A DNA stretch of 63,577 bases. Origin: a virus. Taxonomy: Duplodnaviria > Caudoviricetes. A program made the translations under genes and the position numbers. The DNA lies in the IMG/VR virus record IMGVR_UViG_3300033183_000158, positions 1-63,577 of that record. The stretch is one strand, 5' to 3'. The notes under the pieces are model-generated. The model was not told where the DNA came from. It saw only the letters and a list, made by a program, of their open reading frames with translations, and did not search any database. Below, piece after piece: positions 6,001 through 20,909 of the stretch (positions within the stretch are counted from its first letter, which is position 1; the number at the start of each line of letters is the position of its first letter).

Positions 6001-9000
6001 CCTGATGGTGGTATCGACTACTACGAGGTAATGCTTCCTGCATATATGAAAGAGCAGATGACGGACAGTAAAGGTAGAGTGCTACCGATTGACCAGATTC
6101 CAGAAGAAGCTCTTGAGATTATTGGTTACCGTATTCCTACAGAGGGTAAAAACTCTATGGCTCCTATGAAAGTTGTAGGATTCCTTCCTCCAGAGTACGG
6201 AGGGACTATTGCTGTGCCTGATGAGTTTATTGTGCAAATGGGATCTGACTTTGATATTGATAAGTTATTCTTGCAGATGCGCAACATTCCAAAGAAAGAT
6301 GCAGGCAACCAGCCTATGGAATTAACTCGTGAGCAAGAGTTGCAAAACAATCTCTTTGACATGATTCATACAGTCTTAAGACATCCTTCTCACTTTAGAG
6401 ATGTGATAAGCCCTCAAGGGTTTGAAGGTCTTAAAGAGACTGCTAGCAAAATTGCTCAGCTACGCGGTAAGAGTGAAAACGCTAGACTTAATACTCTATT
6501 GTTCTCTACTCAAAATGAATTCCGCAACCGTAACGCCATTGGTAGTAGCATGATTGGTATTGCTGCTAACTTTAATGTCTTTATGGCTGTTGCTCAGAAC
6601 ACTGATATGGTGTTAGCAGATGGTATTATGATTGAGCATGTTGTTACTCCAGAGCTAAAAGCTGCTTATCCAAACCAGGTAAGTGCTAATGCTAAGGTTG
6701 GTAGCACTGTAAGAATTCGCCATACTAATATTGGTAAGAATGACGCAGGGACTTATGTCAATGCAGAAGGCAAGCTAATCTCTGCAGAGATGAAGCAGTT
6801 CATTGCGGCTACCGTAGATAATGCTAAAGATCCAATCTTTGATAAGTTTAACGGAAAGGCATACACCTTACCTACAATTCTTACTATGGTTTCTGTGGGT
6901 GTACCTACAGAGACTGCGCTTATGTTCGCAGCACAGCCTATTATTATAGAAGCTGCTACTGCATACGATAATAATCGTTCTGTATTTGGTACAGGATCTA
7001 CTACAGAATTTAATGAGGTTAAAGGAAACTACATCAGAGAAATTCTGAAACTAATTCCAAGCCAGCGCAATCTAAAACCTGAAGAAAAAATTGCAGATTG
7101 GAACACAATCCCAGATGTAATTGCTAAGCTACAGCAGCAAGGAGAAATTACTTCTGAGCCTAATACAAGTAACAAGTTGTTGCGTAGAGGGATTGAAGTA
7201 GATCCTGCAAGCTTAGAAGGAGAGCAAAAGCTTAACTACTTGGTGCAACAGTTACATGTATTGCAAGAGTTCTCAGAAACTCGTAAGAGTGCTATGGCAG
7301 CACAAGATAGTGTTAAGTTGTACAAAACTGATGTTACAAGTGCTGGACCTTCTACAAGTAGATCTCATGAGTTAGATTACATTATGAGGTCTATGGATGC
7401 AGATCCTAAGATTTACATTGATAATGTTCCTGCGCATGTTGCTATCTACCCTGAACGAGCTCGTCGTCTTGAAAGTGAAGGTACGCTGCAAGGACAGTAC
7501 ACTGCTACGGGAGAAAAAATATTTGATGTACCAGAGCAAAGTGCTTACCCGATCCTAGAGTCTTACTATGAAAATGTATCAGTACGCTCTAGAGAAATGC
7601 TTAAGCACTTCTTTATCTCTGAAACTACAGGTGTACTTGCATTTACAGACAAGGCAATGCAGGTATTTAATAACGGACGCTGGGATGAGAAGGTTGCAAA
7701 CAAAGTAAAACGTTTGGTAAACCAACAAGCTCTTTCTAAAGTTCCTGCACTACAAGATCTAGATGCTTCTATTATGTTGGGTATAAACCGTATCCCAGCA
7801 AATGGTCAGGCATGGACTGAAAAAGAGATAATGAATGGTGAAGCTCCTGTTGCTGTTGTTTTACGATACGCACAACAGAAATACCCAGACCTGGCAAATA
7901 ATCCTTACCACATTTTAAATAAGCTAAAGCCTGAGTTTAACAAGAAGACTGTAGAGTCTAACTTAGGTATGCGTCTTATCAGTTTTGAAAACATCTCAGA
8001 TTCTGTAATTGATGAAGCACTTACGGAATCGTTAGAAGAAATGTTGTTTGGTAATGATCCTTTGTTGAAGCTACTTGCTGAGCAGTTAGTTAAGTATAAC
8101 TTCTTGACCAAGGGTATGGCATTCCAAAGAGATTCTTTCGCTAAGTTGTTAAGCCCTGATATCCTGGAAAGCATGAACATTCCAGATCAGTTGTACATTG
8201 AAATGAACAATTTACAGGGGTCTATGCCGCAACTAACGTTAGATCAATATGCTAGTGTTAACTACCGAGACTTTGCTAAACCTTTTGCACTTAATAAAGA
8301 TGAGTGGCAAGATGGTAAAGACGCGGGTGCTGATGGTGGGTTTGTTGTAAGTGCTTCAAAATCTCGTAGGTTAGGACCTTATGTACTAAGAACGGGTAAT
8401 GGTAGTCTTATGAACCCTGAGTACTACGATGCAGACTCTAGCGCTATTTTATACAAGCGTGTTACTGATGGTAGTGTAGAAGTTGATGAAGGATCAGTTG
8501 CTTATGTTCCAATTCAAAAACGTGGTATTCGTGGTAAGCTTGTAGAGCTTGATGGTTCTTCTGCAATACATCCTACTGTAGGTAAAAGCTTATCTAAGAT
8601 CTCGTTTGGTGAGACTGAGGCTACTGCTACTACAGAAGAAAAAGTAGACATGTTGCAGGCAAACTTTGCTGCAGCTGGTATCCAGGTAGTTGTTCGCACC
8701 GATGAAACAATGTCTGAAAACGCAAGTGTTAAAACTGAAGGAGGAAAATCTCTGATAACCCTTAATCCAAATCAAGTATTTGGTGATACCGTTATTCACG
8801 AGTTTGGTCACATCTATGTAGATCTTCTTGGTGTAGATAATCCATTGGTTGCTCAAGGTATCGCACAGTTAAAAGGCACACAACTTTGGAAAGATGTTGC
8901 AGCTCGTTATCCAGAACTGTCTGGAGACGCACTTGCAAAAGAAGTTCTTGTTACTGCTATAGGTAGAGAGGGATCTAAACTGTTTAACGAACAGCGTAGT

Positions 9001-11997
9001 CAGAACAAATGGAAAGTTTGGTTGAATAAATTCTTCCGTGCTATTGGTAAGTTGTTTGGTGTAGAGCCTAACGCTGCTCGAATTCTAGCTGCTGAGATGC
9101 TTAGTGGTCAGATGCAGAGAGACTTTAGAGGCACACTTTCTTCTGAAACGCAGTATCAAAAAGGCGAGGATGCTACGCTTCCTGAAATGTTGGCACAAAA
9201 ACGCCTGCAATTAGAGCGTTTGATTAAACAATACGGTTCTGAAAACCTTCCAGAACTTGCAAAGCTTGCAACTAAATGGAATGAGCAGAGCACAATTGAA
9301 AATCTTACGCTCATGGATGCCCAGGTAAAACGTTACTTAGATAGTCTAGACAAATACTTGGCTAAGATGGATGCGTTTATGGCAGATCCTGAAAACAGGA
9401 CTGACGAAAACCTAAATGCAATGTTCCAAACGTTGTATAACTATAGCACGGCATTGGCAGCGTTTACAGACTTTACTGATATTCCTGCTAAAGGGTTAAA
9501 AGGTGAGCTGAAAAGCACAGTCAAAAAACTTAATAAGCGTGGAGCCCGCGTACGCCAGGCAATTAATCGTATTAGTGAGTTCTCTCAAGAGCAATTTGCA
9601 GAAAACTTAGGAGAGTTGTCTACTAACCCTGAGATCCAGGCAGACTTTATGAAGATGTTTAACCCTACGGGTATGCATCTATTCGATGAGTCTGGTACAC
9701 AGTTGCTTCTTGATTCTTTGGCAGATACCAATGTGTCGTTCATTTCTCTATTGATGAAAGACTTTAAGATCAACAGAGCTCAAGGAGAAGAAGAAGCCCA
9801 GGAAGAGTTGATTAAGTGGCAAGAGCTCATGGAAGAAATGGATGCTGCAGGTGTTACTATAGAATCTCTATACAGAGGTAATACACCTAGCCCACAGTTT
9901 ATCTTGCCTACAATTAAAAAGAGAATTAAAAATGCTGCAGGGATAACTCAGATTGTTGAGGTTCCTAATCCCCAGTGGCAAGCTCTTAGTGATAAACAAA
10001 AAGACTTTAGTAAACGCATTCGTCAGACGCTTTCTAGAATGACCGCTCATACTAATTCTAAAATGTTTGAGTATGGTTATATTCCTGCAGTTCCTCTTAA
10101 TGAGAAAGACTACTGGGAAGAAATCAAGAAGACGCGTCAAAAGATGATTGATCGCTACGAGAAGTTTAAAAACAAGAAAGTAGGAGAAGAAGGCGTAGAA
10201 GATGAATACTCTAGTGTTATTGTAGACTCTGCAGGTAACGTAGTTGAAATGTTACACATGCCATATATGAGCATGCTAAATCAACTAGAGTTGCCGGCAT
10301 TGAAACAAGTTCCTGAAGGTGCTACTCCTGAAGAGATCAAAGCTATCGGTGAAGAAAACAAAGCAATCTATGCTGAGAGAGCTAAGATTGAAGCTGAGAA
10401 TAAAAAACGCCACGGCGAAGCTCTTGATACTGACTTGCGCAACACGATGGAGCGATTCATCTACCAGGCAGTACGTCACAAGTACAAGAAAAAGATCGAG
10501 GGTAAGATGCTTCTAGCTCGTGAGCAGCTACGCCAAATGGATATTGTTGAAGCTCCTAACAAAGTTGATAGACTGAAACAAACGTTTGCGTCTGAGGACA
10601 AAAAAGGAGAAGAACAAAACCGCCCTACTATTAAAGGTGAGAACTCTAATATCTTTAAACACTACGATAAGTGGTTGACAATGGTATTCTATGATCACTT
10701 TGAGGCAGATGAAAGTGAAACCTGGAAAAAGATTTCTGATGGTCTTAGAGATTACTCTTCTGTAGTAGGTATTGGTTTAAACGTGTTCTCGGCTATTAAC
10801 AACAAGACTTACGGAGAAATGCAAACTGCTATTGAAGCAGCAGCAGGTGAGTTCTTTACAGTTAAAAACTGGTTGAATGCTAAAAAAGAATACAACGCTA
10901 ACATACTAAACATCTACGCAGATCGTGATAGTGGTAAATCTGACAACAAAATTGTAGCACTTATTAAGCGCTTCGATATTTTGCAGACACAAGACGAGCT
11001 TTCTGGTAGAGAGTACAGCAATCCTGTAATGAAGAAGTTGATGTGGGCTAAGAACGCAATGTATGCAATGCAGCATGCGGGTGAACACAGCATGCAAAAC
11101 CAAGTTCTTCTTGCAATGTTGGATAAAGAGAAGGTAATGCTCAACGGTGAAGAGATATCATTAAAAGATGCTCTTGAAGTAGAGAACGGACGTATTGTAA
11201 TTAAGAAAGGTGCGACTACTAAAGATGGTAAACCTGTAGATTCTAAATACCTGGCAAGCTTTAAGAACAAAGTAATCTCTGTTAATCAATACTTACATGG
11301 TATTTATAACAAAGAAGATGCTGGTACGCTACAACACTACGCCCTGGGTAGATTGATTATCCAGTTCCGTAAGTGGGCTCGTCCAGGATGGAATAAACGC
11401 TTTGGGGCTAAGTTTGGTCAATCTAGTTGGAATGAAACACGCGAACGCCTAGATGAGGGTAGTTATATTACCGGTGCTAAGTTTGCTAAAGAACTATTCC
11501 GAGGTGCTCTTAACATGGACTTCAATGCTAAACTTCACTACCAGTCTTTGACTGAAGGTGAGAAAGCAAACCTCAGAAGATTTGGTATGGAGATCGCAAT
11601 GATGGCGTTAGTTGGAGTACTTGCTATGGCTGCTGCGGGGGCTGCAGAAGACGATGACGATAGCAAAGCACTAGCACTCTCTGCTTACATGCTTGACCGT
11701 AGTAGAACAGAATTGATGACTTATATTCCAATCTATGGTTGGTTCAATGAAGGTAAGAAATTGATGAACTCTCCAGTAGCATCGTTCAGACAAGTAGAAT
11801 CTCTAAGTAAGATCTTGTTACATACAATGACATATCCATTCTTGTCTAAAGAAGACCGCTTCTACCAAGGTGGTATGTACAGAGGAGAAAATAAACTAGG
11901 TGTTTGGTTCAAACAGATGTTGCCGGGGGTTGCTATTGCACAACGCTGGAAGTTCATCGAAAGACAAACAGCTTACTACAAACTCTACGGATTCTAA
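1..11997 (+). CDS. Giant virion RNA polymerase polyprotein (crAss/phi14:2 gp66-like), 5'-truncated by the window
   Basis: The frame is open from base 1, 130 codons before the ORF-track ATG at 391. GSDFDIDK catalytic motif at 6241-6264, preceded by YRIPTEG; STDAQGY near 5010; zincin motifs YHEGFH (~1972) and IHEFGH (~8794); hydrophobic helix near the C-terminus. Confidence 0.92.
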   Translation, partial: ESVPGTPFAVKRPVTETVEAASTANLSEEDLLAYEEQVKHIKKEIGRKRGALKRAKRPETIERLNNEIAALESKLETVLTQGKAQPTIADPELNVDATPEEQVEQEAENNANDTVEPIELAQKVENLELDMYSFGVTLNSKLVLEDGKVVGVKEPLTAEETKVLEAMYGLEVGDDLFIRPTSEAYNGYGVFTKDGVMIGEMYTPAIARRRYNAALKKLNEATNPEQRAKLELDLLKEDARVERAEAMQSLFDQGITEITTVVKASTAGAVLFGNKERPLSEALSKESFAKHGIAYGETTSGAAKSAVSGVSVEQSDIVKGQLYVFVEGVTGLIAVPVDSPTVKEAGLLDQLEADLIALAAHVTSTDGAQLSGTPEYDAIIARIADYLPVTGSKGIRVVRQTNRGKTFVNLKLPIQGAEMEIVLIDANGNSNFTPGEENHFKEQAIKIQEEGRTFTIPFTQVMNLLGDKLTDVNTQKLKNSDPETRAKYLAQIGQRMTTNLESFTDANGKKYHVSPKTVGNQYGASIQHDAVSHNLKPTLQQKAERVNAVAPDEVREKVKRNKPKERRVKRGKKTSKNKTGRDAMDDALGLSLKVDGDNINDGKTEDLDAAEAWWRKAFPNVPFIRVEGLINNGGELAYGLFANASVTLSNLALPGTVYHEGFHTAMHLYLTEEERSKIYSEARAELSKLSPEEFKEAMRVARVSGVSNVSELTDLQVEEYVAEKFRAFMIVGESEYTPKTRIGRWFKKLKDLIKMFLSNRKHTDRLFQNIKAGKFNYKPTPQMIAHANTMSANLKALPEMTTREINESVNIITRLVPGAIQDIQDNAEEYGIKPGDNISEWVGAVLYDYLQENLVDRGIGNIENIVKVLNNFDDTDLSPGILSRVMHAFKLRYGVDLANATLNDLNRKNVEQIDALESDQEIDNADAMDGRIERNWDDSFLFHNPKDSVSQDVRNTIQSLPKIDRFEGDKLYASKDNFFGIRQFVEFDAVYPYLEANLAGIASVQEMMDRIYEFANSADPTFMALYKKLTIGDGAANLRSAFYTHFAKQRPTVLMAVFEDGVIKMIPVNRNNSEFLIRDKFISQASAHRSENNLNPGQQKAKIVELRKPLRKAENLTNEEFAKRYSQVLGSMGMSLVEGGVDVVEKAIARELNKGTLDKQELKTKLGYIIEAYVADNIENERKNLTDFGRSIRYYKSEAIQNVMQNVEGKNLYGVTQSNHIARVLDMLKDPAKEAQARQILAEMLKDPRVRHSNYMRLIVKYGVVNDKNELVEAQASVEPLMENGLPIINREGLEKINYSLLDGLKTDKDGVRYGDMNEVEFVALSVAGYLRGGQDLKDAGERSDVITTPALTPSDKGTLYLMNTPRWDRQDVRRNFHDGSGAELSTVLISRALHGELQAMRQEGRRLFGDNIDGPLTEDMLIPGQALQTYYDTDGNGNVVVDGKVVGNGFKSSLLSGIDMAALTEEERKTIQTLIQPNGIPMGGFGSLVPAVARIIKKYTVQQEADRIEKLILQAAEKSPEFKMQVNAQPGKSLEDRARRIALGDKNNIGMALHNMLHNYEMQTLFYGTEGEYKNDVDHGKRAASPWTPGIALDTTQFSSPTYRVATMSDIKVTSASYQAMEDQLTADILDAKHKGKAEKTAKGAATKAGKEARKEARELLKGYRNIESTDAQGYMTIDRFQEIMRARGLGSKYDPLIEKVKAGKKLTPRELKYFLDPVKPFYYSRSYDPRLGRMSSNLIKLSSLPLIPQLTRGTELDKLRLWMENKDSGVKAGPNRVDEVVYQTAHKVGSYEVSTPHSVDADGNVTFDPKSMLEAGIRELPHEGYTIQLDNPEHLVDAKAKVGSQLAKLIIEGLDPSATYGTFGSADSLINNYQSTIAELVQIAHDKLIEDIGAVVNEDGSMEFTEKSLEKLGSIIQDELGRRNATEVLKQGLQVTPDGKRFVVPAFFSGAASKVESLMLSLYTQRVVNIKVPGGTAVQASSSLMVGKDRPRLSAKLKPDGGIDYYEVMLPAYMKEQMTDSKGRVLPIDQIPEEALEIIGYRIPTEGKNSMAPMKVVGFLPPEYGGTIAVPDEFIVQMGSDFDIDKLFLQMRNIPKKDAGNQPMELTREQELQNNLFDMIHTVLRHPSHFRDVISPQGFEGLKETASKIAQLRGKSENARLNTLLFSTQNEFRNRNAIGSSMIGIAANFNVFMAVAQNTDMVLADGIMIEHVVTPELKAAYPNQVSANAKVGSTVRIRHTNIGKNDAGTYVNAEGKLISAEMKQFIAATVDNAKDPIFDKFNGKAYTLPTILTMVSVGVPTETALMFAAQPIIIEAATAYDNNRSVFGTGSTTEFNEVKGNYIREILKLIPSQRNLKPEEKIADWNTIPDVIAKLQQQGEITSEPNTSNKLLRRGIEVDPASLEGEQKLNYLVQQLHVLQEFSETRKSAMAAQDSVKLYKTDVTSAGPSTSRSHELDYIMRSMDADPKIYIDNVPAHVAIYPERARRLESEGTLQGQYTATGEKIFDVPEQSAYPILESYYENVSVRSREMLKHFFISETTGVLAFTDKAMQVFNNGRWDEKVANKVKRLVNQQALSKVPALQDLDASIMLGINRIPANGQAWTEKEIMNGEAPVAVVLRYAQQKYPDLANNPYHILNKLKPEFNKKTVESNLGMRLISFENISDSVIDEALTESLEEMLFGNDPLLKLLAEQLVKYNFLTKGMAFQRDSFAKLLSPDILESMNIPDQLYIEMNNLQGSMPQLTLDQYASVNYRDFAKPFALNKDEWQDGKDAGADGGFVVSASKSRRLGPYVLRTGNGSLMNPEYYDADSSAILYKRVTDGSVEVDEGSVAYVPIQKRGIRGKLVELDGSSAIHPTVGKSLSKISFGETEATATTEEKVDMLQANFAAAGIQVVVRTDETMSENASVKTEGGKSLITLNPNQVFGDTVIHEFGHIYVDLLGVDNPLVAQGIAQLKGTQLWKDVAARYPELSGDALAKEVLVTAIGREGSKLFNEQRSQNKWKVWLNKFFRAIGKLFGVEPNAARILAAEMLSGQMQRDFRGTLSSETQYQKGEDATLPEMLAQKRLQLERLIKQYGSENLPELAKLATKWNEQSTIENLTLMDAQVKRYLDSLDKYLAKMDAFMADPENRTDENLNAMFQTLYNYSTALAAFTDFTDIPAKGLKGELKSTVKKLNKRGARVRQAINRISEFSQEQFAENLGELSTNPEIQADFMKMFNPTGMHLFDESGTQLLLDSLADTNVSFISLLMKDFKINRAQGEEEAQEELIKWQELMEEMDAAGVTIESLYRGNTPSPQFILPTIKKRIKNAAGITQIVEVPNPQWQALSDKQKDFSKRIRQTLSRMTAHTNSKMFEYGYIPAVPLNEKDYWEEIKKTRQKMIDRYEKFKNKKVGEEGVEDEYSSVIVDSAGNVVEMLHMPYMSMLNQLELPALKQVPEGATPEEIKAIGEENKAIYAERAKIEAENKKRHGEALDTDLRNTMERFIYQAVRHKYKKKIEGKMLLAREQLRQMDIVEAPNKVDRLKQTFASEDKKGEEQNRPTIKGENSNIFKHYDKWLTMVFYDHFEADESETWKKISDGLRDYSSVVGIGLNVFSAINNKTYGEMQTAIEAAAGEFFTVKNWLNAKKEYNANILNIYADRDSGKSDNKIVALIKRFDILQTQDELSGREYSNPVMKKLMWAKNAMYAMQHAGEHSMQNQVLLAMLDKEKVMLNGEEISLKDALEVENGRIVIKKGATTKDGKPVDSKYLASFKNKVISVNQYLHGIYNKEDAGTLQHYALGRLIIQFRKWARPGWNKRFGAKFGQSSWNETRERLDEGSYITGAKFAKELFRGALNMDFNAKLHYQSLTEGEKANLRRFGMEIAMMALVGVLAMAAAGAAEDDDDSKALALSAYMLDRSRTELMTYIPIYGWFNEGKKLMNSPVASFRQVESLSKILLHTMTYPFLSKEDRFYQGGMYRGENKLGVWFKQMLPGVAIAQRWKFIERQTAYYKLYGF

Positions 11998-12010: not shown

Positions 12011-12049
12011 AAAAAAAAGGGGAGCTACTTGCTCCCCTTCTTCTTTTTT
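12011..12049. terminator. Bidirectional intrinsic terminator between convergent modules
   Basis: A8, then stem AAGGGGAGC-TACTT-GCTCCCCTT, then CTTCTTTTTT; lies at the +/- convergence point. Confidence 0.88.
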
Positions 12050-12146: not shown

Positions 12147-13001
12147 TTAAAATATGTATCTGATAGTGTCTAGGTTAAAGTAACTACTATACAACTCTTT
12201 AAATTCTTCTATCCATCGTCCTTTGTAGCTCAAAGGATAACGCATTACACCTTGTTTGTTCTTGATTTCTGAGCTCCATTTCATCATCTCTTGAGCTTCA
12301 AGGCTAGATCTAACCATCTGACTCTTGTGATTTGTAAGAGCAATCACCTCACACTTGTTTTCTCCTGCGATGTTCTTCACATCAGAGAACAAGCCATCGT
12401 ACTGTTTAACCCAGTCTTTAACAAATATAACAGGACTGTAGTTAATATGCACCTCCCAACCTAACTCTTTGAGCCGATTAATATCCTCTAATCGGCTCAC
12501 AATCTTAGACATCTTAGGTTCTAAGACATCGGAATACTTCTGTGGCATTACACTCACGCGTACTCTAGGCTTCTTATTAAAGCTACTAACGTCTAGCGTC
12601 AGTAGTTCTGGATACTTAGTAGCCATTGTACTGTTAAGGTTTTCGTGTTTATCATACATACGTAGATAGTCATATAAAGGAATTGGCATATGCTTTTGCA
12701 TAAGGACCAAGTCAGAGTTACATGCTATATCTACCATTGTGTATCTCGGATCCTGCTGGTCAGGAACTTTGATATAGGTCTTCTCCCACTCAACAACAGA
12801 GTTAAATATCTCGTCGACATTCTCATTTACAAAGACTCTCGTGCCATTGTAGCGAGACATATAGCAATACGTATTAACGCACCCTCCGAAACATCCGTAG
12901 ATGACGTTAGGTGCGATACAATTTGCGCTGTTGTTATTGGGTTTTGTTACGAGAGTCCGGGTCTTCTGGCGTTTAATCACGCTCGATACCGTTTTCTTCA
13001 A
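12147..13001 (-). CDS. splB: Spore photoproduct lyase-like radical SAM protein
   Basis: GCFGGCVNTYCYM cluster motif, IACNSD (like SplB SCTSD), ATK, RVSVMP, SRLEDINRLKELGWEVHINYSPV, C-terminal IRYIF. The start may be GTG at 12980. Confidence 0.82.
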   Translation of the reverse strand: MKKTVSSVIKRQKTRTLVTKPNNNSANCIAPNVIYGCFGGCVNTYCYMSRYNGTRVFVNENVDEIFNSVVEWEKTYIKVPDQQDPRYTMVDIACNSDLVLMQKHMPIPLYDYLRMYDKHENLNSTMATKYPELLTLDVSSFNKKPRVRVSVMPQKYSDVLEPKMSKIVSRLEDINRLKELGWEVHINYSPVIFVKDWVKQYDGLFSDVKNIAGENKCEVIALTNHKSQMVRSSLEAQEMMKWSSEIKNKQGVMRYPLSYKGRWIEEFKELYSSYFNLDTIRYIF

Positions 13002-13095
13002 GGTCTTTCTGGCAGATATCTACCATAGTCAACGCTTCTTCGTATGTGTCGTAGTAATTATTTCTTACTTTCCACAGGAGCTTTGGTCTTGACAT
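12973..13095 (-). CDS. Hypothetical protein (40 aa)
   Basis: MSRPKLLWKVRNNYYDTYEEALTMVDICQKDLEENGIERD; its stop overlaps the GTG start of the SPL-like gene. Confidence 0.5.
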   Translation of the reverse strand: MSRPKLLWKVRNNYYDTYEEALTMVDICQKDLEENGIERD

Positions 13096-13234
13096 TGTAT
13101 TCTTTCTTTAATCTGATAAGCGTCCTGGTACTTACACCTAGAGCAGACGCTGCTTCTTTCTGAGTTTTAAAATTCTTTAAGGCAAACACAATCATTCTTT
13201 TGTGCCACCATGCGATGTTAAGATTTTCTGGCAT
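13058..13234 (-). CDS. Fis-type helix-turn-helix protein (58 aa)
   Basis: Manual translation MPENLNIAWWHKRMIVFALKNFKTQKEAASALGVSTRTLIRLKKEYNV...; the QKEAASALGVSTRTL pattern is typical of the Fis HTH. Confidence 0.7.
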   Translation of the reverse strand: MPENLNIAWWHKRMIVFALKNFKTQKEAASALGVSTRTLIRLKKEYNVKTKAPVESKK

Positions 13235-13360
13235 TTGGATTTGTTTCAGCTACAGAAATATGGAGATCTAGTTTCTTGGAGATGTCCTTTAACTGTCGCG
13301 TTCTGGTTAATAATTCTTTTAAGCTGTATAGCTGTTCTGTCGTTAGGTCTACCCAGTGTG

Positions 13361-13588
13361 TCATTTCTCTTTGGTGTTAAAGGTTTCGCTCAAGTACAAT
13401 TCATTGTCCAAGAACTCTACTACATTTCTTGCTAACCTTTCCTTCCTTCCTTTTGGACTAATGCTAATAGCCCAACTTAATAAGGTGTCGCTGATAATCG
13501 TTTTAATGTCTTGTATCATTTCTATTCTGTTTTTATATGTTGTTGCGTATGATTTGATTTCTTTTCCCATCATTATATGTCTTAACAT
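13361..13588 (-). CDS. Hypothetical protein
   Basis: ORF in the - strand operon. Confidence 0.5.
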   Translation of the reverse strand: MLRHIMMGKEIKSYATTYKNRIEMIQDIKTIISDTLLSWAISISPKGRKERLARNVVEFLDNELYLSETFNTKEK

Positions 13589-14431: not shown

Positions 14432-15550
14432 CTACCAAACTATCGGATTTTGATTTGTAGACTCTAAGAACTCATTACATCTAGTAAAATGCTTACACCC
14501 AAAGAAACCTTTATGTGCCGAGAATGGCGACGGGTGTGATGCTTTTAATACTAGGTGCTTGTCATGATCTATCATGCCTTCAAACTCTTGAGCATGTTTA
14601 CCCCATAGCATAAATACCATAGGTCTATGGGTATTATTAGGACGGGCTAATAAATGTTTTAGGGTTGCCTTAGTAAATTGTTGCCACCCTAGCTTAGAGT
14701 GCGAAGCAGCATGTCCTTTCTCTACAGTTAATACAGTATTGATTAGGAATACTCCTTGCTTTGCCCAGTGCTCTAGGTTAGTTTGAATGTTGAGGTAGAA
14801 CCCCTCAGCATAATCTTCTTCAACCTCTTTTAGTATGTTCTTAAGAGATGGTGGTACTTTCAACTGTCCTTTTTTTATAGAAAAAGCCAGTCCGTGAGCA
14901 CTACCATCGTGGTATGGATCTTGACCAATGACAACAACGCGTACATCATTATAAGGCGTAAGCTTATACGCATTAAAGATGTCGTTGTTCTCAGGGTATA
15001 CTATAGTACGCTTACGAAGGTTTGCCACCCTCTTACCAAGTTCCTGCATGTAAGCATTCTTAAACTCGGAATACAATACTGTGTACCATTCGTACCCTAG
15101 TAAGTTCATACGCTTCTGGTCCATACTATCTTTACACACTATATCCCAGTGCTTACAACGCAGAAAGATCTTCTCCATGTATCCTTTGTTGTTGCTCTTA
15201 TAGTTCATGTAAAAAGAGTTCCGTTCGATATTGTAGGCTTCTGCAGTGTATGTTGCAAAGTCTGTTTCATACACTACCTTTTCTACATAAGGAACCAACG
15301 ACTTTAGAATAGTCCAACTAAACGTGTTGCGGTGCTTGTTTTGTTCTTTCTCTTTCTTGTAGAGAATCATTTCGTTATCCACCGTACGTATAGTACCTAC
15401 TAATCTAGAGCGGTCGTCGTCCCCAGGTTCAATGAGAAAGACATTGAGTCCTTCATCTGTTTGTTTGCCATATATTTTAGCGCCGTAAGGATCAGCACTA
15501 ATAGGCATCAAGTCTTGAGCTAAGCTCTCCAGTTTCTCTTCAACCGTCAT
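14432..15550 (-). CDS. ung: Uracil-DNA glycosylase family 1 with ~150-aa N-terminal extension
   Basis: VVVIGQDPYH, AHGLAFS, PPSLKNI, WAKQGVFLINTVLTV, LWGKHAQ, HPSPFS motifs. Confidence 0.93.
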   Translation of the reverse strand: MTVEEKLESLAQDLMPISADPYGAKIYGKQTDEGLNVFLIEPGDDDRSRLVGTIRTVDNEMILYKKEKEQNKHRNTFSWTILKSLVPYVEKVVYETDFATYTAEAYNIERNSFYMNYKSNNKGYMEKIFLRCKHWDIVCKDSMDQKRMNLLGYEWYTVLYSEFKNAYMQELGKRVANLRKRTIVYPENNDIFNAYKLTPYNDVRVVVIGQDPYHDGSAHGLAFSIKKGQLKVPPSLKNILKEVEEDYAEGFYLNIQTNLEHWAKQGVFLINTVLTVEKGHAASHSKLGWQQFTKATLKHLLARPNNTHRPMVFMLWGKHAQEFEGMIDHDKHLVLKASHPSPFSAHKGFFGCKHFTRCNEFLESTNQNPIVW

Positions 15551-17395: not shown

Positions 17396-18715
17396 TTAAC
17401 CAACTAACACTAGTCGATCCTTAATTAAACTCTTACGCTCGATAAGTTCTTCGTGCGTAATATCCATGCTTGTGATGTTGTCTAAGCCTTCATACTCTTC
17501 CAAGAGTTTGTTAAGCTTAGCCTCCTCAATAGCTGTATAGTCTTCTTCGAAGTAACGAGTATCAACCTCACGGATGCTACCGTCATCGTTCAACTTACAA
17601 ATAGCATAAGGCAAGTACTCACAAGTACGCATCTTCTCGAAATCATAGTCGTAAGGTACGGCTACAACATTCATGGGAGACACTAGACAAGCTAAGATAT
17701 AATTTGTTTTGGAATTACCACCAAAGCCTGCAACATATCCTGGAGCACCCACATGCAAACCTGAAGAACAAGTATTGTTTGGGTCGTTATCACACTCTTC
17801 ACGAGGCATAGTAACGGCTTCACCCAACATAATAGTAGACTTGCGAGTATGCCAGTCTGTAAATGTAGGAGTATCGAAGTCCATGCCTTTAATGATGGAT
17901 GTATACAAATCAGACAACAATCCTTCGTACACAATATCAACATCTAATGTAGATGTGTAGTATGTATCAAGAGTTTCGTTGTACTCCCACTCTTCTGGAA
18001 TACCACCATTATTTATAGCAGCAATTACATCTTTCATGCGTACTTCTTCAAGATCTCTCTCAGATCCCTCTTCAACTGCAGTAATAAAATCATCTGCAGT
18101 TTCATAGGTACAACCTTCGCCGATCTCAGTAAATACAATCTCATCATCAATGCTGTATACATGGATGTTATCTGTATTCTGACCAGAAGCTTTCTTGTAG
18201 ATGTACTCACTAGCAATAGCAAGAGCTAGATCTTTCTTGCTCTCGCCTTTCCAAGCCACAGACTTGTAGGCAATAAAGTAACCTTTGTCTGTAATAGGGA
18301 ATGAGAAACGCTCAGCAAACTGGAACAAGCTTTGACGTACATGCTTGTCTGGGTTTAGCATAAGCAACTTCCAGAAGTTCACTAAAGGTTCAGTAGATAG
18401 ACCAAGGTCTACATACTCTTTAATCTTTAGCATCAACCCTGTAGGGATTGGTTCAGAGTAATTTCCGAGATAGAAATTACCGTCGTTATCACGTGTAAGA
18501 CCTGCAATGTCTTTCATGCGATAGTTAGGATCTGTCATATCCAAAAGCTCATCATAAGCTTCTGCATCGTTTGCTAATGCTTGGCTGCGCAACTGCGCAA
18601 CCTTAGCAAATAGATCTTTTGATTCGTCTTCGTCGGCACAAACGAATTGTTTAGTAGCACCGTCGATGTTAAGCGTAACGTTTAGTCCGCTACGCAAGGC
18701 AAAAATTCTAGCCAT
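17396..18715 (-). CDS. rIIB: rIIB-like protein
   Basis: LVNFWKLLMLNP, ITDKGYFIAYK, MPREECDNDPNNTCSSGLH, VVAVPYDY-KMRTCEY; adjacent to rIIA. Confidence 0.85.
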   Translation of the reverse strand: MARIFALRSGLNVTLNIDGATKQFVCADEDESKDLFAKVAQLRSQALANDAEAYDELLDMTDPNYRMKDIAGLTRDNDGNFYLGNYSEPIPTGLMLKIKEYVDLGLSTEPLVNFWKLLMLNPDKHVRQSLFQFAERFSFPITDKGYFIAYKSVAWKGESKKDLALAIASEYIYKKASGQNTDNIHVYSIDDEIVFTEIGEGCTYETADDFITAVEEGSERDLEEVRMKDVIAAINNGGIPEEWEYNETLDTYYTSTLDVDIVYEGLLSDLYTSIIKGMDFDTPTFTDWHTRKSTIMLGEAVTMPREECDNDPNNTCSSGLHVGAPGYVAGFGGNSKTNYILACLVSPMNVVAVPYDYDFEKMRTCEYLPYAICKLNDDGSIREVDTRYFEEDYTAIEEAKLNKLLEEYEGLDNITSMDITHEELIERKSLIKDRLVLVG

Positions 18716-20909
18716 AACACTTGAGTTTAGAATTAAAGTTAATTAAGTTAATGTAATGTTCGATCGCTTTGAATGCATCAGAATCTTCTTCCCATGTTCT
18801 GCTTACAAATTCATGCATAGGATGGGCATTCTTCCATTCAGTTAGATACTCGTTAAGGTTTGATATGCTTACTTGTCCCTCATTTGGTATTGTAATATAC
18901 TCATTATCAGGATTATATGCAAATTTAAATACCTTTTCAAAGCGTTTGGTTACAAACTCTGGTATTGCTCTACGCTTATTAGCTATAGTATCAAAGACAG
19001 GGTTGTTTGTAGCCAGCATCCAAGGCATATCCATAATCATATTGTAATTATAGATGCGCGATATCTGACTGTAGAATCTCGGAACAAACTGCTCTACATC
19101 TACAGCATTATGATGTCCTTTAAAGTATTTCTTACGCTGTTCGGATATCATAATAAACTTGACATTGCGAAACACTCTAGAGTAATAAGTCTCACGGTCA
19201 AGCTGTCTTGGATGAGCTCCGTAATACATCAGTTCAAATGCATGCATAAGCTTCTCACGTTGCTTGCTATTACCGTATACAATCATCTTATTATACTTCA
19301 GGATGTCTGATACTTTATTTTGTTTTTGTTCAAACAAAGTATCATCATCAAGATTTATATAAATACGCTTGTATGGAATCACTTCTACGCTACGCACAAC
19401 AGATCCACGCTTACGAGATTGCTTGTAAGACTCTATCCAATCTTCAGGAATAACTAGATCGTCGTAGCTTTCTGTCTCCTTAACTACTTCTTTGATCATA
19501 TGCTTAAAGTAGATATCTGCTTGACCATAGTTAGGAGTACCCAAGCCTTTGACTTTGTAAAAGTTTGCAATAGAAGCCCTGTAATCAGGATCTAGTTTTA
19601 CTGCTACAAACTTTCCGTAGGTTTCTTGGATGTAGGCGTCCTTCATAGCGCTCATACGATCTCTAACGCGGAATATCTTAGCGCCTTTTAGATGTCTCTC
19701 GGGGCTATGATATCTGTCTGTAGTGTCGTACAAAAGTCTACACAAGGGCAAACCTTTAAGAATTCTAGGAGACGCTTTGTCTGTAAATCCTAAAGACTTG
19801 TGCACTGTAATAAAGAACAAAGGGTTGCTTGGCATACTATCTAGATTTTCTAGAGGTTCATACACTGCTTCAGCACGCTCAAAGAAGTAACTAGAAATTA
19901 GTATACATTCATCGTTTACACGAAGCTTACTACTGTTCTCACGAGTGATGTCGTAGTAAGTCTTCAAATCTGAAGTCCTGTTGTTCTTTTCAGCCAATGC
20001 TTTCGCTTCTTGCTTAAAGTCTTCAACCTTTTGTTTGATAGCCTTACGAGTCTTAGTGTTGTACTCTACAGACTCACGGTTCATAGTCACACTAATCTCA
20101 CCTACATCAAAGTACAAAGCAAAGTTACCAGACTGCTGATGGTAGTACACATCTTCAAGTCCAGCGGCTCTCCAGTCTAACGGATAACCTACCTTGCCAA
20201 CACACAATTGAATTCTGTCATTGGCTGTACCGTTTGTAGTATGAATCCAGTGCTTGCCTTTAAAGATCTTGTAGTCGTTATTGATATCTTCACCTGGTAT
20301 CTTGTAGGTGATGTTATCAAAGTAACGCAACTGATCTTTGACAGCGTTCAGGAAGTAACGATAGTCGTTGTCGTTAGCAATAGGAATAATTACCTGCGTA
20401 CCGTTAATCTTATCAGTCGTTGATGTAGACATCAAACTAATAATAGGTACCTGCTCGCCTTTATGAATAACGTAGTTGTATTCTGTAGAATCTACACGAG
20501 TTACAACATTAAAGCTATCTGCGTAGGCAAGAGGAGACTTAGCACCGATGCCAAAACCGCCGATCTGATCGTTGGTATCACGCTTTGTAGATGCAAAGTA
20601 TTTAGAGTAAATATTCTTAATGCGTTCTGGAGACAAGCCAGGACCAAAGTCTTCGAAGATAATTTTACCTTCATCAAACCCAGGCTGGACCATTCTTACT
20701 TGCACATCAAGCTGTTGATCTACTTCTTCATGCGCGTCAAAGCAATTAGAAGTAATTTCTCGCACAATACTACCAAACTTATCGGAGTACAATGCGTCTG
20801 AGAATCCCTTGAACAGGACTCCCAATGATTCTGTGTCTATGGAGAATTCGGTATCTTGCACATCTCCAAGCACTTCCACTTCGTTCTGAGAAAACTGATT
20901 TAGTTTCAT
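18708..20909 (-). CDS. rIIA: rIIA-like protein (N-terminal GHKL ATPase)
   Basis: LYSDK-IVREITSNCFDAH, DFGPGLS, STKR-TNDQIGGFGIGAKSP, NRESVEY. Confidence 0.88.
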   Translation of the reverse strand: MKLNQFSQNEVEVLGDVQDTEFSIDTESLGVLFKGFSDALYSDKFGSIVREITSNCFDAHEEVDQQLDVQVRMVQPGFDEGKIIFEDFGPGLSPERIKNIYSKYFASTKRDTNDQIGGFGIGAKSPLAYADSFNVVTRVDSTEYNYVIHKGEQVPIISLMSTSTTDKINGTQVIIPIANDNDYRYFLNAVKDQLRYFDNITYKIPGEDINNDYKIFKGKHWIHTTNGTANDRIQLCVGKVGYPLDWRAAGLEDVYYHQQSGNFALYFDVGEISVTMNRESVEYNTKTRKAIKQKVEDFKQEAKALAEKNNRTSDLKTYYDITRENSSKLRVNDECILISSYFFERAEAVYEPLENLDSMPSNPLFFITVHKSLGFTDKASPRILKGLPLCRLLYDTTDRYHSPERHLKGAKIFRVRDRMSAMKDAYIQETYGKFVAVKLDPDYRASIANFYKVKGLGTPNYGQADIYFKHMIKEVVKETESYDDLVIPEDWIESYKQSRKRGSVVRSVEVIPYKRIYINLDDDTLFEQKQNKVSDILKYNKMIVYGNSKQREKLMHAFELMYYGAHPRQLDRETYYSRVFRNVKFIMISEQRKKYFKGHHNAVDVEQFVPRFYSQISRIYNYNMIMDMPWMLATNNPVFDTIANKRRAIPEFVTKRFEKVFKFAYNPDNEYITIPNEGQVSISNLNEYLTEWKNAHPMHEFVSRTWEEDSDAFKAIEHYINLINFNSKLKCYG

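What the first reader, a model, noticed from the sequence alone, without database searches (positions are those of the whole stretch)
12147..13001. Phage-borne spore photoproduct lyase with a CX3CX4C cluster motif
Seen: CFGGCVNTYC has CX3CX4C spacing instead of the canonical CX3CX2C. The YCY tyrosines are kept, as is a Cys in IACNSD that aligns by eye with the H-donor Cys141 region of Bacillus SplB. Known: spore photoproduct forms in UV-exposed dehydrated DNA. Inference: tightly packed capsid DNA may accumulate this lesion in sunlight and the phage repairs it after injection. Alternatively the enzyme performs new base chemistry.
Basis: partly seen in the sequence, partly recalled or inferred. 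Interest (0 to 1): 0.75.

Follow-up and report, generated by a model that had tools for sequence, protein, structure and literature searches.

The report
Short phage photoproduct-lyase, stretched iron-sulfur motif
A marine crAss-like phage carries a shortened, strongly conserved relative of the bacterial spore enzyme that undoes a UV-made thymine cross-link without light, and its iron-sulfur-binding cysteines have an unusual spacing that has not been described for this enzyme class.

Summary
Window 12147-13001 (-) is an intact ORF. Its likely start is GTG 12980, giving 277 aa. It reads C37-FGG-C41-VNTY-C46, i.e. CX3CX4C.

- **Family:** it scores above Pfam's SPL cut-off. Its AlphaFold model (pLDDT 96) matches Geobacillus spore photoproduct lyase at Z 26.7, against 13.7 for the next radical SAM enzyme.
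- **Residues kept, by alignment:** the H-donor Cys, both Tyr, the SAM ligands and the three side chains that hold the 5'-dihydrothymine.
- **Residues lost:** the first ~50 residues, the phosphate clamp (R273/K309) and the hairpin-tip Tyr.
- **The motif:** the two-residue insertion is present in 81 of 81 intact viral copies (dN/dS ~0.14). It comes with a C-x-G-G-C-x-x-[S/T]-Y-C signature. On the family tree it alternates with canonical CX3CX2C (single origin rejected, AU p 4e-8). Published motif variants that I read change only the first spacer.
- **Context:** the replication/repair module of a crAss-like phage. M6-type thymidine-hypermodification genes were not found.
- **Reading:** most likely light-independent reversal of an SP-type thymine dimer in phage DNA (0.55). 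The idea that capsid DNA accumulates SP is untested.

This scan found the same family earlier on other phage genomes.

The parts
12147..12980 (-). SPL-family radical SAM gene, 277 aa from GTG 12980. The mechanical ORF from TTG 13001 gives 284 aa, and residue numbers in this report count from that TTG.
   Evidence: ORF. PF20903 61.1 bits. TIGR03886 137 bits. AF2 pLDDT 96. SPL structures Z 26.7. Homologues of 277 aa start at MIK.
12864..12893 (-). Cluster motif C37-F-G-G-C41-V-N-T-Y45-C46 (CX3CX4C). Y47 follows directly.
   Evidence: Sequence. Aligned to C90/C94/C97 of Geobacillus SPL with a 2-residue insertion. C46 is invariant, and C37, C41 and Y45 are at least 90% conserved in 74 family members.
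12711..12722 (-). C94-N-S-D97: the putative H-atom donor Cys, followed by the Ser/Asp that bind the SAM amino group.
   Evidence: Aligned to C140-T-S142-D143 of 4fhc. The roles come from PMC3467042 passages. C94 is invariant in the 12 nearest subfamilies and is Cys in 44 of 74 family-wide.
12240..12269 (-). Predicted beta-hairpin, residues 245-254 with tip K-N-K-Q-G. It sits at the place of SPL's lesion-flipping hairpin but is shorter and has no tip Tyr.
   Evidence: DSSP strands 245-246 and 252-254 in the model. Profile alignment to 4fhc. More distant short relatives keep K-x-S-x-Y-G.
12973..13095 (-). 40-aa upstream ORF whose stop overlaps the GTG start of the lyase gene. It is not conserved in relatives.
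   Evidence: tblastn found it in 0 of 80 related loci (a short query has low power).
12017..12039 (.). Bidirectional intrinsic terminator between the lyase gene and the convergent giant ORF.
   Evidence: Terminator scan. The minus-strand RNA folds at -22.8 kcal/mol, z -4.2, and the stem is followed by U8.

Best explanation
**What it is.** The gene encodes a working, N-terminally shortened member of the spore photoproduct lyase (SPL) branch of radical SAM enzymes. It is expressed from the replication/repair gene block of a marine crAss-like phage.

**Inferred mechanism**
1. C37, C41 and C46 hold a [4Fe-4S] cluster, despite the extra two residues between the second and third Cys.
2. The reduced cluster cleaves SAM, which is held by S96/D97, K129, S150 and the backbone around Y45/Y47.
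3. The 5'-deoxyadenosyl radical takes the C6 hydrogen of a 5,6-dihydrothymine that is methylene-bridged to a neighbouring thymine. This base is held by R148, E218 and Y282, and the partner thymine by the N22-S25 loop.
4. The bridge breaks, and C94 returns a hydrogen atom to the thymine methyl radical.
5. Y47/Y45 relay the radical back towards SAM.

**Biological role (inferred).** Light-independent direct reversal of a spore-photoproduct-type thymine dimer in the phage's own DNA after injection, using host SAM and host reductants.

**Shown versus inferred.** Shown here: family, fold, residue conservation, selection and genomic context. Inferred: cluster binding by the stretched motif, the substrate, and where the lesion arises.
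For: **Family and fold**
- PF20903 scores 61.1 bits against a cut-off of 27.
- The family profile hits 4fhc at E 5e-44 over the full length.
- The AF2 model has pLDDT 96.0 and pTM 0.93.
- The six SPL entries are the top Foldseek hits (E 5e-16 to 1e-14). The next hit is at 1e-4.
- VIA-align gives Z 26.5-26.7, rmsd 2.5-2.7, with 271-273 of 284 residues aligned to SPL 50-341. RlmN is next at Z 13.7.

**Residue mapping.** This uses the alignments, with roles taken from PMC3467042 passages.
- Cluster Cys: C90/94/97 = C37/41/46.
- Tyr relay: Y96 = Y45 and Y98 = Y47.
- H donor: C140 = C94.
- SAM ligands: S142/D143 = S96/D97, K174 = K129 and S195 = S150.
- Thymine binding: R193 = R148, E268 = E218 and Y339 = Y282.
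- Loop holding the 3'-thymine: S76-S79 = N22-S25.
- All of these except N23 and N24, the two middle residues of that loop, are invariant in the 12 nearest subfamilies at 34-50% identity.

**Selection**
- 81 of 81 copies are intact and carry the motif.
- Median dN/dS is 0.137 over 568 pairs.
- Synonymous sites are saturated against the window copy.
- The protein is 71-77% identical in 5 of 5 large crAss-like genomes. In the same genomes the capsid protein is at most 25-29% identical, over part of its length, in 3 of 5.

**Tolerance of the motif.** CX3CX4C and CX3CX2C forms interleave on the tree.

**Context**
- The gene is last in the minus-strand block that holds PolA, helicases, primase, a PD-(D/E)XK nuclease and Ung.
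- A terminator follows it.

**Weak hint of expression.** Two metatranscriptome runs from one study hold contigs at least 98% alike over 12801-13162 and 12748-12960. DNA carry-over is not excluded.
Against: - It misses both NCBIfam equivalog cut-offs: TIGR04070 scores 60 against 400, and TIGR03886 scores 137 against 437.55.
- SPL's first ~50 residues are absent.
- At the aligned positions the phosphate clamp is lost: R273 becomes T223 and K309 becomes V252. The hairpin is shorter and has no Tyr305 equivalent. DNA or lesion recognition may therefore differ.
- In the motif surveys I read, the second spacer is CX2C in every canonical-fold example (PMC9477430). Cluster binding by CX3CX4C is unproven.
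- SP is described as a product of A-form, low-water DNA (PMC3742179). No paper I found reports it in virions.
- A phage SPL-fold enzyme with a non-repair role exists: M6 gp53.
- There is no biochemical evidence of any kind.
Confidence: 0.55

Rival explanations
1. It is a radical SAM enzyme that makes or remodels a thymine-derived DNA modification rather than repairing damage. Phage M6 gp53 is the model: an SPL-fold enzyme that isomerises glycinyl-thymine during thymidine hypermodification.
For: - M6 gp53 is a phage-encoded SPL-fold radical SAM enzyme that acts on DNA thymine derivatives (PMC8989533 passages).
- The window protein lacks SPL's phosphate clamp and hairpin-tip Tyr.
- dATP/dGTP diphosphohydrolase-N genes lie within 3 kb in 23 of 81 related loci, and MazG genes in 9 of 81.
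Against: - There is no sequence similarity to gp53 (BLASTP E 0.28). gp53 falls in another radical SAM subgroup and does not hit PF20903.
- 0 of 5 genomes matched HMUDK_hel, ADDT or HMUDK_HMUD1. The five were the window plus four relatives that are 96-100% complete. M6 was positive as a control.
- No such Pfam family appeared in 41 window ORFs.
- No gene family accompanies the lyase in more than 41 of 81 loci.
- The H-donor Cys and the residues that bind dihydrothymine are kept, which fits SP-type bond cleavage.
Confidence: 0.2
2. It is a DNA repair lyase, but for a lesion other than the classical intrastrand 5R-SP. Candidates are an interstrand or T-C methylene-bridged dimer, or another dihydropyrimidine adduct formed in hydrated, densely packed B-DNA.
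For: - The catalytic core is kept, but the phosphate clamp, the hairpin tip and the N-terminal domain differ.
- Classical SP needs A-form, dry DNA.
- Bacterial TIGR03886-type relatives occur outside spore formers. A paper reports SPL genes mainly in Methylobacteriaceae (PMC10765411 passage).
Against: R148, E218 and Y282, and the N22-S25 loop, match the residues that hold the two thymine rings of SP. Nothing points to a specific alternative lesion.
Confidence: 0.15
3. Its substrate is not DNA (RNA, a nucleotide or a small molecule), or it is a decaying, inactive relic whose stretched motif no longer binds a cluster.
For: - The second-spacer change is unprecedented in the surveys I read.
- The equivalog cut-offs are missed.
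Against: - Purifying selection is strong: dN/dS is 0.137 and 81 of 81 copies are intact.
- All three Cys and the aromatic residue before the third Cys are kept.
- The full SPL-specific C-terminal region is modelled with high confidence.
- The gene sits among DNA replication and repair genes.
Confidence: 0.07

Closest known systems
Spore photoproduct lyase SplB/SPL (Geobacillus thermodenitrificans, PDB 4FHC-4FHG, 4K9R, 4RH0; B. subtilis SplB; Pfam PF20903, NCBIfam TIGR04070)
   Same: - Same fold through to the C-terminus: Z 26.7, with 272 residues aligned.
- The three cluster Cys, Tyr96/Tyr98, Cys140, the SAM ligands S142/D143/K174/S195 and the thymine-binding R193/E268/Y339 are all kept by alignment.
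   Different: - CX3CX4C instead of CX3CX2C.
[quoted passage not shown]
- R273 and K309 are not kept at the aligned positions.
- The hairpin is shorter and has no tip Tyr.
- About 19% identity, and 60 bits against the 400-bit equivalog cut-off.
- Encoded by a phage of non-sporulating hosts, not in a splAB operon.
NCBIfam TIGR03886 'spore photoproduct lyase family protein'. My recollection is that these are SPL relatives of non-spore-forming bacteria; no call checked this.
   Same: It is the best-scoring curated model: 137 bits, aligned from model position 61 to the end at 346. True members appear in the same family search, for example P0184 at 567 bits.
   Different: - Far below the 437.55-bit cut-off.
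- About 60 residues shorter at the N-terminus.
- The true and near members sampled (P0184, P0193, P0200, P0231) have Thr or Glu, not Cys, at the Cys140 column, and a canonical CX3CX2C.
- They form a separate starred clade.
Pseudomonas phage M6 gp53, a radical SAM glycinyl-thymine isomerase (thymidine hypermodification; PMC8989533)
   Same: It is a phage-encoded radical SAM enzyme with an SPL-like fold that acts on thymine derivatives in DNA.
   Different: - 480 aa, with a canonical CX3CX2C.
- No detectable sequence similarity (E 0.28).
- Different NCBIfam and Pfam assignment.
- It sits between the ADDT, PLP and 5-hmdU kinase genes, none of which was found here.
Radical SAM enzymes with non-canonical cluster motifs (CX4-11CX2C clusters listed by RadicalSAM.org; HmdB CX5CX2C; QueE CX14CX2C; ThiC CX2CX4C)
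   Same: A three-Cys site with non-standard spacing. First-spacer variants also occur inside this family: CX4, CX7, CX8 and CX11, one row each of 74.
   Different: - The variants listed for the canonical fold all change the first spacer and keep CX2C (PMC9477430).
- ThiC's CX2CX4C lies in a C-terminal domain of a non-canonical architecture (PMC4389238).
- Here it is the second spacer that is lengthened, in a canonical fold.

Membership tests
Spore photoproduct lyase (SplB; PF20903 / TIGR04070) | Scores above the curated family threshold | tested here: inconclusive
   Pfam PF20903 is met: 61.1 bits against 27. The NCBIfam equivalog TIGR04070 is not met: 60.3 bits against 400.
Spore photoproduct lyase (SplB; PF20903 / TIGR04070) | Radical SAM CX3CX2C motif that binds the [4Fe-4S] cluster | tested here: not met
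   Three Cys are present and align with C90/C94/C97, but the spacing is CX3CX4C. Cluster binding itself cannot be tested here.
Spore photoproduct lyase (SplB; PF20903 / TIGR04070) | Fourth conserved Cys (Cys140/141) as H-atom donor, plus Tyr96/Tyr98 flanking the third Cys | tested here: met
   C94, Y45 and Y47 fall in the aligned columns. They are invariant in the 12 nearest subfamilies.
Spore photoproduct lyase (SplB; PF20903 / TIGR04070) | SAM ligands Ser142/Asp143, Lys174 and Ser195, and SP-base ligands Arg193, Glu268 and Tyr339 | tested here: met
   S96/D97, K129, S150, R148, E218 and Y282, by the alignments. The roles come from PMC3467042.
Spore photoproduct lyase (SplB; PF20903 / TIGR04070) | Intra-lesion phosphate clamp Arg273 / Lys309 | tested here: not met
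   The aligned residues are T223 and V252. R254, two residues further along the same strand, might substitute; that is an inference.
Spore photoproduct lyase (SplB; PF20903 / TIGR04070) | Protruding beta-hairpin with a conserved aromatic residue (Tyr305) at its tip | tested here: not met
   A hairpin is modelled at residues 245-254, but it is shorter, its tip reads K-N-K-Q-G and it has no aromatic residue. More distant short relatives keep a Tyr-Gly tip.
Spore photoproduct lyase (SplB; PF20903 / TIGR04070) | N-terminal alpha/beta domain (four-stranded sheet, three helices) | tested here: not met
   The structural alignment starts at SPL residue 50. Only the last part of the domain remains, including the loop that holds the 3'-thymine.
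Spore photoproduct lyase (SplB; PF20903 / TIGR04070) | SAM-dependent splitting of 5-thyminyl-5,6-dihydrothymine | not testable with these tools
   This needs anaerobic biochemistry.
NCBIfam TIGR03886 (SPL family protein) | Score above the equivalog cut-off over the full model | tested here: not met
   137.1 bits against 437.55, and model positions 1-60 are not covered. The six-frame search gives 135.9 bits.
M6 gp53-type glycinyl-thymine isomerase / thymidine hypermodification system | Sequence relationship to gp53, and co-occurrence with the amino acid:DNA transferase and 5-hmdU DNA kinase | tested here: not met
   BLASTP E 0.28. PF18723, PF18724 and PF18748 matched in 0 of 5 genomes, with M6 positive as a control. 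The window is only 78% complete.
Radical SAM superfamily (canonical partial TIM-barrel fold) | Partial (beta/alpha)6 barrel with the cluster loop after strand 1 | tested here: met
   After SPL, the next matches are RlmN, PFL-AE, viperin and NifB at Z 13-14.

The most novel reading that the evidence does not exclude
Densely packed DNA in the virions of sunlit-ocean crAss-like phages behaves photochemically like spore DNA. It accumulates spore-photoproduct-type thymine dimers, and the phages carry their own compact, light-independent radical repair enzyme to remove them after injection. That enzyme also shows that the CxxC half of the radical SAM motif, so far seen as fixed, can be stretched to CX4C and naturally toggles between the two forms.
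Probability: 0.3. Interest if true: 0.8.

Novelty: new variant of a known kind. Interest (0 to 1): 0.55.

Why it matters
**If the enzyme splits SP-type dimers.** Spore photoproduct, or a close analogue, would then be a relevant lesion outside endospores, in virus particles or infected marine cells. Phages would have a dark UV-repair route alongside photolyase and excision repair. That can be tested directly by LC-MS on irradiated virions.

**For radical SAM enzymology.** The family offers natural pairs about 50% identical that differ in CX3CX2C versus CX3CX4C. The example here is the window protein against P0123. Such pairs are a ready-made system for asking how the cluster loop and the SAM-contacting aromatic residue tolerate a longer second spacer.

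**For annotation.** The stretched motif could escape filters that require CX3CX2C. RadicalSAM.org, for example, defines membership by that motif.

**For evolution.** The 277-aa enzyme is one of the most conserved proteins among very divergent marine crAss-like phages, which argues for a strong fitness effect.

Tried and rejected
- **Cultured phages.** tblastn of the protein against 50,697 GenBank phage records found no match at E 1e-5. PHROGs gives only a weak hit to an unknown-function family (phrog_13321, E 1e-6).
- **Distant viral relatives.** The search for related loci failed with the 74-row alignment because it has no conserved stretch. With the canonical-motif relative P0123 it found none in viral contigs. 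I therefore could not see the genomic context of canonical-motif forms.
- **A partner gene.**
  - The upstream small ORFs and the HTH gene matched 0 of 80 related loci (short queries have low power).
  - Clustering neighbours within 3 kb over 81 loci gave no family in more than 41 loci.
  - That top family, about 660 aa, got no Pfam hit. Earlier scan notes call it PolB; I did not confirm this.
- **Host origin.**
  - Only 2 genome-contig hits turned up: a 100-kb contig in a MAG titled Clostridium sp., and a 920-base contig in a MAG titled Flectobacillus sp..
  - In 301 sampled genomes of the Flectobacillus-titled MAG's phylum, 7 matched at E 1e-5. Six of these were weak (46 bits or less) and lay in longer ORFs.
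  - There is no sign of recent capture from that phylum.
- **Recent horizontal spread as the cause of high conservation.** Rejected, because synonymous sites are saturated (median pS 0.85 against the window copy).
- **Co-variation of Gly-Gly with the insertion.** The counts are striking (17 of 21 against 1 of 46), but the independent-pairs test has only 4 supported pairs (median p 0.25).
- **RNA evidence.** RNA-library contigs cover only the 5' third of the gene. I draw no inference from the uncovered part, and contigs cannot show strand or level.
- **Surface-water enrichment.** Not testable here. Fifteen runs of 6 studies labelled marine, seawater, estuary or aquatic hold at least half of the gene's words, but no depth information was used.
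- **Literature.**
  - Five searches for phage-borne SPL found no description: 'spore photoproduct lyase' with phage, with crAss, with virome and marine, 'spore photoproduct' with capsid, and with AMG/Crassvirales terms.
  - Two searches on spellings of CX3CX4C found no radical SAM paper.
  - Supplementary figures were closed and may bear on residue conservation. These are Fig. S3 of PMC3467042 (the SPL alignment) and Fig. S15 of PMC8989533.
Full report
**Observation**

The minus strand of window 12147..13001 carries an intact 284-aa ORF counted from a TTG. Its codons at 12893..12864 read C-F-G-G-C-V-N-T-Y-C, which is CX3CX4C.

phmmer against PDB sequences aligns GCFGGCVNTYCYM with GCMGHC--HYCYL of Geobacillus thermodenitrificans spore photoproduct lyase (4fhc, E 1e-7). 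It also aligns IACNSD with AACTSD. The deposited chain carries 27 extra N-terminal residues. After that correction:
- C37, C41 and C46 correspond to C90, C94 and C97.
- Y45 and Y47 correspond to Tyr96 and Tyr98.
- C94 corresponds to Cys140, the equivalent of B. subtilis Cys141.

A profile of 74 family members reproduces this over the full length of SPL (E 5e-44).

The likely true start is GTG at 12980 (277 aa). Homologues are mostly 277 aa and start with the equivalent MIK. That GTG also overlaps the stop of a 40-aa upstream ORF.

**What the window is**

The window is a 63,577-base viral record, estimated 78% complete. It encodes:
- a crAss-type major capsid protein (PF23898, 292 bits), a P22-like portal, crAss tail-ring proteins 1, 2 and 3/4, and the start of a muzzle protein;
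- a giant ORF of more than 3,868 aa.

The lyase gene is the last gene of the minus-strand block. That block holds family-A DNA polymerase, an SF2 helicase, a DnaB-like helicase, an AAA_24 ATPase, a Toprim primase, NinB- and RusA-like proteins, an rIIA/rIIB-like pair, a PD-(D/E)XK nuclease and a family-1 uracil-DNA glycosylase with a 150-aa N-terminal extension. A bidirectional hairpin terminator at 12017-12039 separates the lyase gene from the convergent giant ORF.

Fifteen sequencing runs from six studies hold at least half of the gene's sampled words. They are labelled marine, seawater, estuary or aquatic metagenome.

**Family and fold**

| Test | Result |
|---|---|
| Pfam PF20903 (SPL) | 61.1 bits, cut-off 27 |
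| NCBIfam TIGR03886 (SPL family protein) | 137 bits, cut-off 437.55, model 61-346 of 346 |
| NCBIfam TIGR04070 (true SplB) | 60 bits, cut-off 400 |
| AlphaFold2 on the 74-sequence alignment | pLDDT 96.0, pTM 0.93 |
| Foldseek against the PDB | six SPL entries first (E 5e-16 to 1e-14, TM 0.76-0.78); next NifB, MiaB, RlmN from E 1e-4 |
| VIA-align | Z 26.5-26.7, rmsd 2.5-2.7 Å, 271-273 residues; model 1-284 on SPL 50-341; next RlmN at Z 13.7 |

The protein is therefore an SPL-type enzyme. [quoted passage not shown]

**Functional residues**

I took residue roles from passages of Benjdia et al. 2012 (PMC3467042) and mapped them with the alignments.

| Role in Geobacillus SPL | SPL residue(s) | Window residue(s) | Kept? 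|
|---|---|---|---|
| SAM amino-group ligands | Ser142/Asp143 | S96/D97 | yes |
| SAM carboxylate ligands | Lys174, Ser195 | K129, S150 | yes |
| Bind O4/N3 of the 5'-dihydrothymine | Arg193, Glu268, Tyr339 | R148, E218, Y282 | yes |
| Loop whose backbone holds the 3'-thymine | Ser76-Ser79 | N22-S25 | yes |
| H-donor Cys and Tyr relay | Cys140, Tyr96, Tyr98 | C94, Y45, Y47 | yes |
| Intra-lesion phosphate clamp | Arg273, Lys309 | T223, V252 | no |
| Lesion-flipping hairpin tip | Arg304/Tyr305 | shorter hairpin 245-254, tip K-N-K-Q-G | no |

- All the kept residues except N23 and N24, the two middle residues of the thymine-holding loop, are invariant in the 12 nearest subfamilies, which are 34-50% identical.
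- R254 lies two residues beyond V252 on the same strand and might substitute for Lys309. That is an inference.
- More distant short relatives still carry a K-x-S-x-Y-G hairpin tip.
- Family-wide, the Cys140 column is Cys in 44 of 74 sequences. The TIGR03886-type members sampled have Thr or Glu there.

The chemistry-determining core is thus SPL-like, while the DNA-handling periphery is modified.

**The motif**

CX3CX4C is a stable feature:
- 118 of the 120 nearest database proteins carry it.
- 81 of 81 intact copies carry it, counting 80 viral contigs plus the window.

Among the 150 listed cluster representatives from an exhaustive search of 1.84 billion proteins, 163 reached E 1e-3. Of the 150 listed:
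- 58 show CX3CX2C;
- 22 show CX3CX4C;
- 3, all fragments, show CX3CX3C;
- 67 show none of these, mostly fragments.

In the 74-row alignment the split is 46 canonical and 21 CX3CX4C. There is one row each of CX4, CX7, CX8 and CX11 in the first spacer, and three rows lack the first two Cys.

I built a maximum-likelihood tree with the motif columns removed.
- CX3CX4C needs 9 changes of state, and at least 4 are forced by well-supported branches.
- The canonical P0123 (49% identical) sits next to the window's clade, inside a CX3CX4C group.
- The AU test rejects a single clade of the 21 CX3CX4C rows (delta lnL 192, p 3.7e-8). Two caveats apply: I named the group after seeing the tree, and three of its rows have long branches.

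The insertion comes as a package.
- Gly-Gly precedes the second Cys in 17 of 21 CX3CX4C rows, against 1 of 46 canonical rows.
- The residue before the Tyr is Thr or Ser in 20 of 21.
- The phylogenetically independent test of this link is underpowered (median p 0.25).

Either the loop toggles repeatedly, or it is exchanged by recombination. In both cases the two forms appear functionally interchangeable.

On precedent:
- The RadicalSAM.org paper lists motif variants only in the first spacer (CX4 to CX11, then CX2C; PMC9477430).
- ThiC's CX2CX4C belongs to a non-canonical architecture (PMC4389238).
- Two full-text searches for spellings of CX3CX4C returned no radical SAM paper.

**Selection and distribution**

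- 112 viral contigs encode relatives. The 80 that were kept are 69-79% identical.
- Against the window copy, synonymous sites are saturated (median pS 0.85). Median dN/dS is 0.137 over 568 pairs with 0.05 < dS < 1.5. The conservation reflects constraint, not recent transfer.
- Five of five large carrier contigs (100-120 kb, four of them 96-100% complete) have crAss-type capsid genes. In those five genomes:

| Protein | Identity to the window's copy | Genomes |
|---|---|---|
| Lyase | 71-77% | 5 of 5 |
| Capsid protein | 25-29%, over part of its length | 3 of 5 |
| PolA | 33% | 1 of 5 |

- Neighbouring genes vary. Within 3 kb, the commonest family is an unannotated protein of about 660 aa, present in 41 of 81 loci. 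A PD-(D/E)XK nuclease occurs in 14, Ung in 9, a dGTP_diPhyd_N protein in 23 and MazG in 9. There is no obligate partner.
- Cellular genomes gave only two close hits, both in MAG contigs.
- In 301 sampled genomes of one of those MAGs' phylum, 7 matched at E 1e-5, and six of these were weak.
- No cultured-phage record matched.

**Rival: DNA hypermodification**

Lee et al. (PMC8989533, passages read) showed that phage M6 gp53 is an SPL-fold radical SAM enzyme. It isomerises glycinyl-thymine within a cluster that also holds an amino acid:DNA transferase, a PLP enzyme and a 5-hmdU DNA kinase.

- The window protein has no detectable similarity to gp53 (E 0.28).
- gp53 belongs to another subgroup.
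- PF18723, PF18724 and PF18748 were found in 0 of 5 genomes, these being the window and four near-complete relatives. M6 was positive as a control.
- Pfam scans of 41 window ORFs showed none of these families.

The M6-type pathway is not supported. An unknown modification pathway cannot be excluded, and 22% of this genome is missing.

**Expression**

Two metatranscriptome runs from one study contain contigs at least 98% alike over 12801-13162 and 12748-12960. Together they cover the 5' third of the gene and its upstream ORFs. This is a weak hint only, because DNA carry-over is possible and contigs show neither strand nor level.

**Verdict**

The finding is real. It is a compact SPL-branch radical SAM enzyme that is a highly constrained accessory gene of marine crAss-like phages, and it has a conserved CX3CX4C cluster motif.

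- Best reading (0.55): light-independent reversal of an SP-type thymine dimer in phage DNA.
It faces the known requirement of SP formation for A-form, low-water DNA (PMC3742179).
- I found no paper that describes a phage-borne SPL of this kind.
- Earlier notes of this scan report the same family and the same reading on other phage genomes. This is therefore a recurring discovery within the scan, not a new one for it.

Noticed in passing
window 14432-15550 (-): A family-1 uracil-DNA glycosylase (TIGR00628, 256 bits, residues 153-372) carries a ~150-aa N-terminal extension with no Pfam or PHROG match. A terminator-like hairpin follows the gene at 14428-14408.
   Followed up: partly
window 1-11997 (+): A giant ORF, open at the window's 5' end (at least 3,998 aa; 3,868 aa from the first ATG). 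By eye it contains two HExxH motifs (HEGFH, HEFGH) and a DFDID motif. It is probably the crAss-type virion-packaged RNA polymerase/polyprotein; that identification is recalled and not tested.
   Followed up: no
window 13357-13387: A 31-base stretch at the junction of two small ORFs has word depth ~3,566 in one DNA run, against ~10 for its surroundings. Contigs in four runs diverge on both sides of it. It may be a short element shared with abundant other genomes, or a chance match. It is unexplained.
   Followed up: no
window 12014-12046: The terminator hairpin also matches high-depth contigs (153x and 89x) in two RNA-library runs. Those contigs continue into unrelated sequence on both sides. 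The same hairpin sequence apparently occurs in other genomes.
   Followed up: no
L083 (6001-6831) and G007:C21:33787-34521: A MAG titled 'Clostridium sp.' holds a 70%-identical lyase gene on a 100-kb contig, which may be a phage contig binned into the MAG (not tested). Elsewhere it also holds a second, broken relative with 3 in-frame stops.
   Followed up: no
L071:7071-7523 and L030:2399-2752 (examples): Small dATP/dGTP diphosphohydrolase-N (PF18909) genes lie within 3 kb of the lyase gene in 23 of 81 related loci, and MazG genes in 9 of 81. Neither is in this window's flank. Such genes are sometimes linked to non-canonical nucleotide pools (recalled).
   Followed up: partly
window 17396-20909 (-): An rIIA-like (GHKL ATPase) and rIIB-like gene pair sits inside the replication block. 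It was matched in only 3 of 80 related loci.
   Followed up: no
P0151, P0242, P0269, P0145 (family members): Within the same short SPL-like family there are also first-spacer expansions (CX11CX2C, CX7CX2C, CX8CX2C, CX4CX2C). Three members lack the first two Cys altogether. The cluster loop of this family seems unusually plastic.
   Followed up: partly
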